Part shown: piece by piece, positions 130 to 38,413 of the stretch
How the letters are laid out: each line of letters begins with the position of its first letter
Position numbering within the stretch: position 1 is the first letter of the stretch
DNA from: Azolla caroliniana
Taxonomy: Eukaryota > Plantae > Polypodiophyta
Direction: 5' to 3'
DNA length: 64,000 nt
NCBI GenBank assembly: GCA_043228905.1
Contig: JBHGNT010000065.1
Span: 1-64,000, forward strand
The notes under the pieces: generated by a model
Databases searched by the model: none
What the model was told of the DNA's origin: nothing
Seen by the model: the letters and a program-made list of their open reading frames with translations, nothing else
Translations under genes and position numbers: made by a program

Positions 130-783
130 GTTGGGTAGGCGTCGGTCCCTCGCTGGCCGGATCCCCCCAACGGAACCGTACGTGCAAGTCTCCCCGCATA
201 CGGCTCGCGCCATTTTTTATAGGTCAGGTGGGGTTCAGCGGCCCAGCGTTCATTCGCTGGTGAAACGTATCTCGTTTGGTAGCTTATGCGCGTACGATTG
301 GATTGCTGCCCGCCCCCTTGTTTCGTAACTCTCTTCCAGGGTCCCTCTGTTGGTTGTTAAAGAGGATACTTCCCTTGGAGGGAGGGGGAAAGCAAATTAT
401 CCTCCCTGTGGGCAGCGCCCGCCGCCTGTCGTCGCACCGTAAACCCGCCAAGGCCCTGGCCTTGGGCCCGGAGGAACCAACCCGTGGGCCTAGCCACGGC
501 GGTAAGGCCGGCTCCTCATTCTCACTCCTTTCTCCAGCAGGCAGCTTGAACAGAAGAAATCGGCCTCCTCATTCCCGTCAAATGACCCGGCCCTCCCGGC
601 TCGACCGCTTGCTTGGTTACGTTTCTGTAGTTTCGTCGGTTCCCGTCCCGGCTTTTCTTGTATGCTTTCGGCAAGCAAAAAAAACGCTAGCGGGCCTACC
701 ACGCTTCGCGCCTGCGTCTTTGCCAGACAGTATTTGCCAGTAGTGCCATCCCACCCGACCTGAGGATTTAGTTTGTCCCTTGC
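130..783 (-). other. 3' half of group II intron nad7i140g2
   Basis: Domain V GAGCCGTATGCGGGGAGACTTGCACGTACGGTTC at about 175-208, domain VI, and an AC end at 130. Similarity to the 5' half stops at 783. Confidence 0.9.
635..783. repeat. Inverted repeat, copy 1 (partner 38260-38413)
   Basis: 647-783 is the reverse complement of 38260-38396; the match extends to 635 across a 5-nt indel. The same peptide appears in ORFs 617..1003(-) and 38229..38468(+). Confidence 0.95.
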
Positions 784-2559
784 TAAAATATCTTTGAAGA
801 ACTTGTACTGATTTTCCAGGTCGGTCCTCGCGAGCGGATATGGGCCCTAGAGGATGGTGTAGAAACTCTCTGCCCGTAAGTCGTGCCTGAAAGCGGTTCA
901 TCCGGGTGAAGCCGGCGGCGAGGAATTGACTGGTGCTGCGTTCACTGCTTGCTCGAAGGCCCGTATCCGCGCAGGCAGTAAGCAACAGATTGGTTCGTAA
1001 CAAAAACAGCTTAGAAAAGAAAAAGAATAAAGTTATTTCCTATTAAACTAGTGATTGTAAAGAAAAAAATCCTTCACAACGCCAAGGTATTTTAGCAAGA
1101 CACTACATAAGACTTTCGCCCTGGATGATATATGGGTTCTCATGAGAAAGAATGGTCGGTTTCCTTTTAATGAAGTAAAATCCACACCTTGACGCCCGGA
1201 ATCCCGTAACGAGTGAATGTTTATTAGGAACCGAACTGATGGGCTTTCCCTAAAGTAACACCAAAAGTCTACCTCCTTTCGTGCGTCCTTCGCCTCCTCC
1301 TAAATAAATTCACTTTCTCTAAAGTAGCCCAATGGATTGTTAACAAGTTCTACGATATACTTATCTTCAAGCCAACCAAGTACTTTAGCACCTTATTGCA
1401 TACATGTTCGAACTCAACTCCAGGTCGCGTATAATCACTCTCATTGCAATCAACCATGGCTACTCCAATATTAATTAATTTTGGCTTTCTTTCTATAAAC
1501 TTTCGTTCCAGCCAGGGAAACGGTGAAGGATAGTGATTTACGGCATGACTGTACAGTTTAGCCGTCACCACTTGTAATTTGAGTCGATAGCCAAACACGG
1601 ATTATGCCCTCTACGCAGACAGAGAACCGCCCAACCTAGCTGCGCAAATTGCTTGCTTGCTTGCTTGCTTGCTTGCCCCCTTCTTGCGGATGCGGAAGAA
1701 CTTGCTTGCTGCTAAGTTTTATTAGCGCAGGTGAAGGCCTTTCCGCTGTCTGTGAGGCGGATAACGGGCAATCTCACTCATTGCGCTGTTTTATTGACTT
1801 CGCCACGGCACCACTTTTTTGGCGGATAAACGGCCTTCATGCTGCCGTTAGTCGAGGCGGCCCGATGAACCAGTGCAGCAGAAAAGAATTTCGGTTATAG
1901 AATGGCCGGTCTCTTTCACTTGCTTCTGATCAAAGGCCGGCAGAGAAGTAGCCGTACAGATAGCATAGGCTGCGGCCTATTCTTGCAGAGAAAACAACTT
2001 CGAGAATGATAACCCGTAGGTACCGGTGGGTTCGATCAGTCCCTGGAGTTCGCTAGGTGATATCTATACGGCAAGGAGGATATGAAGCTATCCCTACGGA
2101 ATCCAATCCCTGTGGTCCTAGATCGGTCCCGAAGCACTAGTCCGGTACCTGCTGCAATCAGTCCCTATGGTACTTGCTGCAACCAGTCCCGAACCCAAAG
2201 GTTTGCTACGCTGCCGCTGTAGGCATAGTTGGTACCGATGTTCACTGAGATTGGGAATCCCCGCTTCGTGCTGATCGTATCGTATTCTCTTCGCTTATTG
2301 CAGCTGTGGTAATCGAGGCTTTGCTTTGTATTCTCGAAGTACGAACGCTAGCTGATCGCTTCGTATCCTTTCAACCGTTGAGGAGCTGCAACTGCTTGGC
2401 GTTGTCTATGGCCATGATTGTATCGCGGTTGGTTCGGGCGGGAATCAATCAAATCGCCACTTTTCACGCGCCCGCCGGTTCATCCCGGAGGAACCGCACA
2501 GGAGTAATTCAGACTGTTTCTCTAGTCAATTTCGCGTGACCGTAAGACGCAATTCTGCA

Positions 2560-2631
2560 AGCGGAAAAAGGGACTCGAACCCTCAACTCCAGCCTTGGCA
2601 AGGCTATACTCTACCATTAAGCTATTTCCGC
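2560..2631 (-). tRNA. trnG: tRNA-Gly(GCC)
   Basis: Cloverleaf GCGGAAATAGCTTAATGGTAGAG...TTGCCAA...GGTTCGAGTCCC. Confidence 0.95.
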
Positions 2632-3374
2632 CAGCGGAACCAGAGCCGAGTGCGGTTCTTCCCCCGTAGAGAAAGCGCTATAGCTTTCGGGGGAAGAACC
2701 GCAATGAAGACTTCATTGCGGTTCCCTTGGAACTATTGACTTGAGACTTCGATGACTCATCGATAGGTCCATGCCCGGAGAGATTCGAACTATCCCGGAT
2801 TCGAAGTTTGGTGCTCGAGCTACAGGCACAAGTTGACCTTACAGACCGAACAGAGGCTAGTAAAATCTAACGCTTAGCTTAGAAGGTCGTAAGATCAGAC
2901 CAGACTTCGCCCGGAAAACGAACGTAAAGCATTGAAAGAGCGTTGCTTAGTGGCTGGCTTTGGCCGCCTTTACGACCCAAAGACGAATCTCCGGGTCCCA
3001 GCTTATTATCCTGCAATGTTACGGATTGACTGTTACTGGTGCTAGGTAAGGAGTTTCAGTTTTGGGCGTCACTTTCGAAATATCTCGAGTAATGGGTTCA
3101 TGTGAGTGCATGAACAATCCAACTACTCTACTAGGCTGCTTCCCGCCCTGTTTCGCAGCTTGCTCCCCTTCGGCGGCACGGCACGGCACGGCACGGCACG
3201 GCACGGCACGGCACGCACGCACCTGTCTTCCCGCATTCCGTCCGCTGAGCGCAAAGCGTCGACAAAGAAAGCAGCTACCTTTTCATTATTATACTGTAAT
3301 CCCAGCGCAAACAAAAAAACTGCCATGAATATCGAGAACGGAACAAGAAGCCACAACGAAATCAAGTCAAGTCT

Positions 3375-3674
3375 ACGGAAGCTTAATCCGTTTGTTCTTC
3401 GTAAACAATTGGATACAAAGTCAGTACTAACCCATAAGGCTCTGTTTCAGATTCAAAACTAGGGTTCAGCTATGAGATTTGACTCTAGGTCACGCCTTCG
3501 GTTTGTGTTTTCCGCTTGAAACATAATATCACTCGTTGTACCGGAACGGATCCCTGAAAAGTTACTTAATCCGCTGTTAGCGTCAAAAATTGTAAACCCC
3601 CTGAAGTTCATAAAGGAAGAGGTATAAAATATTGAAATGAAATTATACGTAGAAAACAAGGAGAAAAGAAACAA
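3375..3674 (+). CDS. rpl6: Ribosomal protein L6 (ACG start and CAA stop need C-to-U; internal stops need U-to-C)
   Basis: MEA..GYK.STNP*GS..KLGFS.EI*L*V..CKPPEV.KGRGI matches liverwort-type mitochondrial RPL6; 100 codons. Confidence 0.9.
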
Positions 3675-3677
3675 ATC

Positions 3678-36945: not shown

Positions 36946-37526
36946 ACTCAATGAATCCTTTCTTTCTTGTTTTTGGTATTCATGGCAGTTTGTCCAGAAT
37001 GGAAACGCAAAGCGTTTTTTCTTTTACAGAATGCGCACTTATATACAAAATTCTTTCACGTTGAACCGATAACTCGACCCTGCCGGTTACTAGAAATACT
37101 ACCGCATCCCGCCAAAGGCCCGGAAACCCGCAAAGCTCCTAAGCCCGTAAAGGCGGCATTAGGTAAAGGGAGTTCGCGCTAGTTGGTATCAAGTCCCGGT
37201 CCGCAGGGTAGCCTTAAGGGCAAGGGCGGGAATGGTTTCCTTTGGTTCCCCGCGCGCGATTGATTGATTGATTGTTGGATCCTCTTATATTGCTAATGGT
37301 GGTATCCCGAATGAATTCGGAACAAAACATATCGTCAGAAACTACCTAGCGACCTGGTTCCTGACTACGACAAGTCCTGGATATTAGTAAATGATGACCA
37401 GCTTCTTTTTTTCTAACAATAAGAAATTGGCGGACTAGTAACTAGTCTTGGCCAACAACCTAGCACGCACGATGAAAGCCCGCGGAGAACAATTTTTTAG
37501 TAATAGAAACAGCAGTGGCTATTTTG

Positions 37527-37610
37527 GCTCACGTAGCTCAAAGGATAGAGCATTCCTATGTACCACCCGGGTTGGCGGGAAACTAGCCGGTTCGAGTCCG
37601 GTCGTGGGCT
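37527..37610 (+). ncRNA. tRNA-like element with a 19-nt anticodon loop (pseudo-tRNA or t-element)
   Basis: Acceptor GCTCACG/CGTGGGC, D arm GCTCAAAGGATAGAGC and T arm GCCGGTTCGAGTCCGGT are intact; the anticodon loop is oversized. Confidence 0.7.
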
Positions 37611-37640
37611 GGTGGGAGGAACAAGCAAGAATGGTTCAAT

Positions 37641-37780
37641 ACGGCGTCTAACAGGCAAATCAAGAATTTCACTTCGAATCCTGGACTTTAGCACCTTGCT
37701 GTTTATGGTGTTTCATGATCAGTATCGGAAACGAATGGAGAAGCGGTAGAACGTGCGGAACCGCATATTGGATTATTCTA
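37641..37780 (+). CDS. nad7: NADH dehydrogenase subunit 7, exon 1 (ACG start, 140 nt)
   Basis: (M)ASNRQIKNFT.N.G.*H.A..GV.*.V.E.NGE.VERAEPHIGL, followed by GTGCG. Confidence 0.95.
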
Positions 37781-38413
37781 GTGCGGCATGAAGCTGCTGG
37801 CGCCGAGTCGGCCGGATGAAAGCCGTTAGCGATGCTCCGCTTGTTCCCTGGCACGGGCGGCGCGCGAAGGCAACTTCCGCGTCGTAAGCACCGAGTTCGG
37901 TTTGTCGAGCAACTCAAGTGAGGCGAACCTAAAAAGGGAAGGAAGGGAGAAGGTCGTAAAGGTGGCCTCGTTATCTGTATCAGAGGTCAGAATAAATGAG
38001 TGCGGGAGAACCTGCCGTCCTCTACTTCCGATTTTGGTTATCTCACGAGCGAGCCAACGGTTCCCCGGGGGTTCTCGGAAACAAGAACGCGTTGGCGGGT
38101 CCTGGAGTGCCCGTCAAGAGCGCACGCGCATACCCCGCGGGGTAACTATTACGACCAGCACCCTCCGCATTTCGGCACAGTGGAACGTGTAACCGGCCCG
38201 AGGTTTCGTTTCAACTTACACTTGTTTCATGTTGGGATGGGTAGACCAACTGCCTGCCCGCAAGGGACAAACTAAATCCTCAGGTCGGGTGGGATGGCAC
38301 TACTGGCAAATACTGTCTGGCAAAGACGCAGGCGCGAAGCGTGGTAGGCCCGCTAGCGTTTTTTTTGCTTGCCGAAAGCATACAAGAAAAGCCGGGTATA
38401 TACGGGAACCGAC
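37781..38413 (+). other. 5' half of group II intron nad7i140g2
   Basis: GTGCG start. No domain V follows; it ends in the inverted repeat shared with 635-783. Confidence 0.9.
38260..38413. repeat. Inverted repeat, copy 2 (partner 635-783)
   Basis: Reverse-complement identity seen directly in the sequence. Confidence 0.95.

What the first reader, a model, noticed from the sequence alone, without database searches (positions are those of the whole stretch)
130..38413. nad7 intron 1 (nad7i140g2) is split into two oppositely oriented halves that overlap by a ~140-bp inverted repeat
Seen: exon 1 plus the intron 5' half lie at 37641-38413 (+); the 3' half plus exon 2 lie at 783-61 (-). The halves share 137 identical bp (about 150 with a 5-nt indel). 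Known: trans-spliced group II introns normally break in domain IV, and I do not recall nad7i140 among the usual trans-spliced set. Inference: the overlap appears to lie upstream of the putative domain III hairpin (GAGGAGCCGGCC..GGTTGGTTCCTC, in the 3' half). That implies either trans-splicing with an unusual DI/DII break, or a recombinational switch in which inverting the 37.5-kb segment rebuilds a cis nad7. Either would capture a cis-to-trans transition in progress.
Basis: partly seen in the sequence, partly recalled or inferred. Interest (0 to 1): 0.82.

Follow-up and report, generated by a model that had tools for sequence, protein, structure and literature searches.

The report
Intron repeat splits a fern nad7
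A 137-base piece of a mitochondrial intron is duplicated elsewhere in this likely fern genome, so intact and split versions of the nad7 gene both occur in the assembly; the intact version likely makes the messenger RNA by ordinary splicing, so no special trans-splicing is needed.

Summary
In detail: 137 identical bp (154 with a 5-nt indel) at 647-783 and 38260-38396, and nad7 exon 1 and exon 2 on opposite strands. The repeat (R) is a recombination hub with two entries (exon 1 side; trnG side) and two exits (exon 2 side; cox3/cox1 leader). All four joins occur: 6 cis, 11 other-parental, 9 split of 26 organelle-contig traversals. The split joins are not mere misassembly: 4 of 8 classifiable nuclear copies carry them, at 89-98% identity. 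An RNA contig spans the whole cis intron. Spacing and orientation of the copies vary between contigs, so there is no defined 37.5-kb switch. Closest known: intron-internal repeats of the fern Haplopteris, where recombinants are rare; here they look common and old. Facultative trans-splicing is not excluded but has no positive support. The scan's notes held nothing similar.

The parts
37641..37780 (+). nad7 exon 1 (140 nt; ACG start and internal stop codons that need RNA editing)
   Evidence: edited C>T sites and exon1-exon2 joint in RNA run X17
37781..38259 (+). 5' part of intron nad7i140g2 (arm A): domain I (intron 6-410, EBS1 TGGAGT at 38103-38108) and 5' part of domain II
   Evidence: helices I(i), I(ii), Id3 paired in 97-100% of cells across 53 distinct homologues, slid controls 0-60%; domain names from recalled group II consensus
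38260..38396 (+). repeat R, copy in the A-R-Y join (intron positions 480-616: 3' part of DII and 5' part of DIII, inferred)
38397..38413 (+). 5-nt insertion plus 12-nt tail of the repeat; the insertion always travels with the Y exit
38414..38808 (+). arm Y: leader shared by cox3 (this contig) and, on the other branch, a cox1 copy
   Evidence: breakpoint 409 nt after R; other branch reads WLFSTN.KDIGTL (cox1 name recalled, Pfam gave no hit on the 70-aa unedited piece)
38826..39623 (+). cox3, downstream of the split 5' half
   Evidence: Pfam COX3 E 3.8e-80 with stops read through; edited in RNA
647..783 (-). repeat R, copy in the X-R-B join
   Evidence: Rfam Intron_gpII 208-130; DIV basal stem 677-683:1048-1054 paired in 98% of cells, next-best partner 81%
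61..129 (-). nad7 exon 2 (69 nt)
   Evidence: exon2-exon3 joint in RNA X17
1..60 (-). start of nad7 intron 2 (i209); the contig ends here
784..3609 (-). arm X: unrelated upstream flank with trnG(GCC) at 2632-2559; in most contigs it leads through R into the cox3/cox1 leader

Best explanation
A 137-bp piece of nad7 intron 1 is duplicated upstream of cox3, all four joins of its flanks exist in this genome, likely made by crossover inside the repeat, and the nad7 message is likely made by ordinary cis-splicing from the intact join. Shown: the repeat, the four joins, the intact four-exon cis gene, old nuclear copies of the split joins. Inferred: crossover in R turns A-R-B (cis nad7) plus X-R-Y into A-R-Y plus X-R-B, the two pieces seen in the window; the split forms are tolerated passengers of a multipartite mitogenome because cis copies persist; longer overlapping repeats (A+R 915 bp, R+Y about 550 bp, X+R about 2.96 kb) then shuffle the outer flanks, so spacing and orientation of the halves are not fixed. 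Whether crossover in R still happens often, or happened rarely and the products are now maintained, is not resolved.
For: Cis join with exact flanks at 6 places on C27, C142, C151; joined exons 1-4 of one cis copy give a colinear 393-codon frame whose stops are TAA/TAG/TGA codons of the kind U-to-C editing removes, exon 3/4 Pfam hits at each cis locus. Junction searches balance: A|R 12 + X|R 14 = R|B 9 + R|Y 17 = 26 traversals outside the chromosome-size contigs; classes 6 A-R-B, 11 X-R-Y, 6 A-R-Y, 3 X-R-B (the window's two included). In five whole contigs (911 kb, 132 kb distinct 31-mers) repeats of 74, 75, 111 and 118 bp show only two parental joins while R shows four, so the assembly does not scramble all short repeats. 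Of 31 nuclear-type candidates 8 span R classifiably: 2 A-R-Y (96.0, 89.0%), 2 X-R-B (98.1, 92.0%), 3 X-R-Y, 1 A-R-B type; changes are mainly C>T/G>A and most copies sit in non-mitochondrial flanks. RNA run X16 has one 1208-nt contig over the entire cis intron with 0 differences; X17 has the edited exon1-exon2 joint. Independent DNA runs show R as a collapsed repeat (X13 depth about 530/425 versus 190-250 in the arms; X9 a 137-nt contig at 42 versus 13-18), and three metagenome contigs, two only 96.7% identical, stop 55 nt into R. 63 of 80 homologous loci from other samples have exon 2 in cis.
Against: Contig traversals are not molecule counts and the assembly method is unknown; no raw long reads were available (all runs laid were short-read contigs, which cannot phase a 137-bp repeat). 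The exon1-exon2 joint does not tell cis from trans. RNA run X17 has a contig entering R from the X side at depth 66, so X-R-B transcripts may exist (strand unknown, DNA carry-over not excluded). The only cis-type nuclear copy has just 14 nt beyond R. Thermodynamic folding of the unedited intron does not recover the DII, DIII or DIV helices (probability about 0); the domain map rests on conserved pairing with few compensatory changes, and the DII/DIII boundary is less certain (DIII strand 670-674 has two equally good alternative partners in DI).
Confidence: 0.8

Rival explanations
1. Facultative trans-splicing: A-R-Y transcripts (exon 1, DI, DII, half of DIII) and X-R-B transcripts (half of DII, DIII-DVI, exons 2-4) would assemble in trans and add to the nad7 mRNA made in cis.
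For: Together the halves hold every domain; split joins are 9 of 26 traversals and old; an RNA contig enters R from the X side in X17.
Against: A cis gene is present and transcribed across the intron, so nothing requires it; neither break is in DIV; each half could close DII or DIII on itself, leaving no free complementary strand (inference); no group II trans-splicing was found in the fern mitogenomes of PMC10027690 and 10.1101/2022.12.23.521604 (passages read).
Confidence: 0.07
2. The split joins are assembly chimeras or vanishingly rare recombinants; real molecules are only cis nad7 and X-R-Y.
For: The organelle contigs are mosaics (911 kb for 132 kb of distinct sequence); in Haplopteris intron-internal repeats gave only very weak recombinant products (PMC10027690 section 8); short repeats recombine rarely in Tolypanthus (PMC8489412, passages).
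Against: Four diverged nuclear copies carry the split joins; 111- and 118-bp repeats are phased cleanly in the same contigs; split joins recur on five contigs.
Confidence: 0.1
3. A dedicated invertible switch: the 37.5-kb segment flips to turn nad7 on (cis) or off (split) in a regulated way.
For: In this contig a crossover between the inverted arms would give exactly the A-R-B and X-R-Y joins found elsewhere.
Against: Neighbouring copies are direct and 13.6, 27.9 or 36.7 kb apart in C142, C75 and C97; a 1.1-kb inverted repeat in the window (24936-26049 / 42774-43882) brackets exon 1 and would itself change the orientation; at least five other repeats show all or most joins.
Confidence: 0.03

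Closest known systems
Intron-internal repeats R180 (in nad2i709g2 and downstream of nad9) and R596 (nad5i1242g2 / rrnLi833g2) of the fern Haplopteris ensiformis (PMC10027690; section 8 read whole, other passages)
   Same: Short repeat with one copy inside a group II intron and one intergenic copy in a highly recombining fern mitogenome; cis gene retained; nad7 has i140, i209, i676 and lacks i917, as here.
   Different: There the gene-breaking products were only very weakly detected by tsa-PCR; here they are 9 of 26 contig traversals and 4 of 8 classifiable nuclear copies (not yet read counts).
Trans-spliced group II introns of seed-plant and lycophyte mitochondria (list of 15 in PMC10027690 passages; Tolypanthus, PMC8489412 passages)
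   Same: Exons and intron halves at distant loci in opposite orientation; repeat-mediated recombination inside an intron is the proposed origin.
   Different: There the cis copy is gone and (recalled) the break is usually in DIV; nad7i140 is not in the list read; in Tolypanthus no causal repeat was left at the breakpoints. Here the repeat is intact, the cis copy persists and the break is in DII/DIII.
Repeat-mediated alternative conformations / substoichiometric forms of plant mitogenomes, e.g. maize NCS2 (recombination between nad4i1399 and nad7i209; passage in PMC10012718)
   Same: Crossover in a short shared sequence breaks a nad gene and coexists with the intact form.
   Different: NCS2 is a mutant between two paralogous introns; here the partner is an intergenic copy of the intron piece and both reciprocal products seem long-standing.

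Membership tests
Trans-spliced group II intron | No contiguous (cis) copy of the intron and flanking exons in the genome | tested here: not met
   Six cis copies with exact flanks
Trans-spliced group II intron | Break in domain IV with a split basal stem (recalled consensus) | tested here: not met
   R is intron 480-628; DIV starts at 677
Trans-spliced group II intron | Two separate precursors give the spliced mRNA | tested here: inconclusive
   RNA contig spans the cis intron (X16); an X-to-R RNA contig exists in X17; contigs cannot phase or give strand
Trans-spliced group II intron | Halves together contain DI-DVI with EBS1/IBS1 | tested here: met
   EBS1 TGGAGT complements the edited exon end seen in RNA; DI, DIV, DV helices conserved
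Recombinationally active mitochondrial repeat | Near-identical repeat with all four flank combinations present | tested here: met
   6/11/6/3 traversals; both split joins also in nuclear copies
Recombinationally active mitochondrial repeat | Raised read depth and graph branching at the repeat in independent data | tested here: met
   X13, X11, X9; three metagenome contigs end 55 nt into R
Recombinationally active mitochondrial repeat | Single molecules spanning the repeat in recombinant form; ongoing crossover | not testable with these tools
   Only short-read contigs were served
Site-specific invertible switch | Fixed segment between inverted sites | tested here: not met
   Orientation and spacing differ among contigs

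The most novel reading that the evidence does not exclude
The split halves are expressed and trans-spliced beside the cis copy: a group II intron that works both in cis and in trans from overlapping DII/DIII halves, the first group II trans-splicing in a fern and a living intermediate of the cis-to-trans shift with its causal repeat still in place.
Probability: 0.07. Interest if true: 0.75.

Novelty: new member of a known kind. Interest (0 to 1): 0.3.

Why it matters
As it stands it is a clear example of the accepted first step toward trans-splicing (recombination inside an intron) without the second step (loss of the cis copy). If long reads confirm that a third or more of nad7 copies are split and have been so for a long time, it becomes a natural test of why ferns have no trans-spliced group II introns despite heavy recombination (PMC10027690 speculates that protein factors are missing): breakage is supplied but not fixed, perhaps because the break is outside DIV. 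It also warns that single organelle contigs in nuclear assemblies can mimic trans-splicing.

Tried and rejected
Read-level counting of the four joins: the run search returned only assembled short-read contigs, which cannot phase R; 8 of 24 rows were marked as possible source of the DNA and none of those was laid. In one search neither RNA run (X16, X17; one study) lists a contig over the R-to-Y junction while DNA run X9 does; lack of cover is not used as evidence (75 piece rows and 60 loose-end rows were hidden). Depth ratios (arms about twice the cox3 body in X13) hint that each arm is present twice per cox3 but contig depths are no copy numbers. Whole-intron MFE and partition folding did not recover DII-DIV. 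An empty X-Y site without R was sought in five contigs and not found. 23 of 31 nuclear-type candidates end inside R or are too short to classify; one (L259, 79%) leans A-R-Y on only 14 nt and was not counted. Of 80 homologous loci 17 showed no exon 2: 12 had under 900 nt available, 3 carry a different intron sequence, 2 (L077, L079) were not followed up; 33 further hits came without flanks. Literature searches gave no report of a trans-spliced nad7i140 or of this repeat in the passages I read; most hits were seen as listings only, subscription papers (e.g. Guo et al. 2020) are not in the library, and bioRxiv supplements could not be seen, so this is not proof of absence. The scan's own notes held nothing on this locus.
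Full report
Observation. The two arms are real: 647-783 and 38260-38396, 137 nt, 100% complementary, extending to 154 columns with a 5-nt insertion. Exon 1 of nad7 (37641-37780, +) is followed by the 5' end of a group II intron at 37781; DV/DVI (Rfam, 208-130, -) is followed by the 69-nt exon 2 (129-61) and the start of intron 2 at the contig end. The window is the first 64 kb of contig C65 (140,910 bp) of a 523-Mb assembly. 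Stop codons in the exons and both C>T and T>C differences in RNA, and the nad7 intron set i140, i209, i676 without i917 (same set as Haplopteris, PMC10027690 table passage), make a hyper-editing fern mitogenome likely (inference).

The cis gene exists. Call the arms A (exon 1 side), B (exon 2 side), X (784-3609) and Y (38414 onward). Searching the genome with the repeat region gave 40 scored places of 55 candidates. Exact flank comparison shows four classes: A-R-B at 6 places, X-R-Y at 11, A-R-Y at 6 and X-R-B at 3, the window's two included. Separate searches of the four junctions balance (A|R 12, X|R 14, R|B 9, R|Y 17; 21/21, 25/25, 40/43 and 40/43 candidates scored). The cis intron is 1133 nt, with R at positions 480-616 and the tail to 628; exons 1-4 of a cis copy are colinear and give a 393-codon nad7 frame with editable stops.

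The split joins are real and old. They are 9 of 26 traversals (35%, Wilson 19-54%; entry and exit are not significantly linked, Fisher p 0.22), but traversals in mosaic contigs are not molecule counts: five whole organelle contigs total 911 kb yet hold only 132 kb of distinct 31-mers. Two checks argue against pure misassembly. First, in the same contigs repeats of 74, 75, 111 and 118 bp show only their two parental joins, whereas R and the 206-, 304-, 626-, 1264- and 1410-bp repeats show all or most joins. Second, nuclear copies on 13-37-Mb contigs preserve the joins: of 31 candidates examined 8 span R classifiably, 2 A-R-Y (96.0%, 89.0%), 2 X-R-B (98.1%, 92.0%), 3 X-R-Y (99.8, 96.6, 94.5%) and 1 A-R-B type with only 14 nt beyond R; differences are mostly C>T/G>A. 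Split molecules were thus present in mitochondria at several past times. Independent DNA data show R as a repeat too: depth about doubles and contigs branch at its ends in X13 and X11 (other organism codes) and X9, and three metagenome contigs, two at 96.7% identity, end 55 nt into R.

No fixed switch. But neighbouring copies are in direct orientation 13.6, 27.9 and 36.7 kb apart in C142, C75 and C97, the arms have alternative outer flanks (778 nt upstream of R on A, 409 nt downstream on Y, about 2.8 kb on X), and a 1.1-kb inverted repeat in the window brackets exon 1. Y is the leader of cox3 on one branch and of a cox1 copy on the other (name from a recalled motif).

RNA. Two stranded rRNA-depleted runs of one study were laid as contigs. 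X16 has a 1208-nt contig from the end of exon 1 to exon 2 across the whole cis intron with no difference; X17 has the spliced, edited exon1-exon2 and exon2-exon3 joints and contigs A-to-R (depth 132) and R-to-B (110). X17 also has a contig entering R from X (depth 66), so X-side transcripts reach R; strand and exit are unknown. Contigs are not single molecules, so cis-splicing is the likely, not the proven, route.

Where the overlap lies. A scan of metagenome contigs gave 113 hits, 80 with flanks, 63 with exon 2 in cis, 52 distinct introns. Across these and the window's intron, the DI closing helices (6-9:407-410, 14-19:398-403), Id3 with EBS1, the stem directly 5' of DV (677-683:1048-1054) and DV are paired in 97-100% of cells against 0-63% for slid controls; 677-683 is the best partner of 1048-1054 (98% versus 81% next). 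R therefore lies between DI and DIV. A DIII basal stem 567-571:670-674 is 94% paired with one change on both sides (C-G here, U-A in 42), but has equally good alternatives, and free-energy folding does not recover these helices. So the 5' half would end in DIII and the 3' half begin in DII; neither break is in DIV.

Mechanism. Shown: duplication of an intron piece next to the cox3/cox1 leader; four coexisting joins; intact cis gene; old nuclear fossils of split joins. Inferred: crossover in R makes the split pair; cis copies supply nad7 mRNA, so split copies are tolerated; longer overlapping repeats shuffle outer flanks. Unresolved: current crossover rate versus maintenance of old products.

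Comparison. Haplopteris has the same kind of intron-internal repeats (R180, R596) with only very weak recombinant products and no trans-spliced group II intron (PMC10027690: abstract, section 8 whole, passages); the Azolla/Pteridium preprint also reports no trans-splicing in ferns (10.1101/2022.12.23.521604, passages; supplements not seen); Salviniales mitogenomes could not be assembled and were suspected to have many arrangements (PMC12548569, passages). Recombination within introns is the stated route to trans-splicing, though no repeat was left at the Tolypanthus breakpoints (PMC8489412, passages); no reversion from trans to cis is known (PMC12625411, passage). PMC10012718 (passages) mentions maize NCS2. 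This case works like a repeat-mediated isoform system and fails the membership test for a trans-spliced intron. What may be unusual is the apparent abundance and age of the gene-breaking forms.

Verdict. Observation confirmed; interpretation partly supported; new member of a known kind; interest 0.3. Facultative trans-splicing remains possible at about 7%.

Noticed in passing
window 37527-37610 (+): tRNA-like cloverleaf 30 nt before the nad7 start, with a 19-nt anticodon loop; missed by ARAGORN and Rfam; folding z only -1.3. Candidate processing (t-) element, untested.
   Followed up: partly
window 38260-38808 (+); L015:3029-3790: R plus the next 409 nt is a shared leader: one branch leads into cox3, the other into a cox1-like frame. 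In A-R-Y joins these genes sit behind nad7 exon 1.
   Followed up: partly
window 38435-38487, 5141-5193, 3314-3350, 59175-59211: A 12-nt motif occurs in five distinct contexts of the 132-kb mitogenome; cox3 RNA contigs begin near the copy at 38435. Possible 5'-end or promoter signal.
   Followed up: partly
window 8412-11346, 24743-26049, 42774-43882: Large-subunit rRNA hits are in two pieces (9255-9810, 9848-11346) next to a family of 0.3-1.1-kb repeats with trnC that show all joins; the rrnL structure was not examined.
   Followed up: no
G000 C27 (493 kb), C65, C75, C97, C142: These contigs are mosaics of isoforms of one roughly 132-kb mitochondrial sequence set; other findings from them may show similar false 'splits'.
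   Followed up: yes
L069, L113, L128 (metagenome loci): Same exon-end motif followed by a different group II intron sequence; not homologous at the 5' end to nad7i140g2.
   Followed up: no
L030 (G000:C1:21464000-21471700): A young nuclear copy (over 99.6%) holds X-R-Y next to an inverted partial R-B piece.
   Followed up: no
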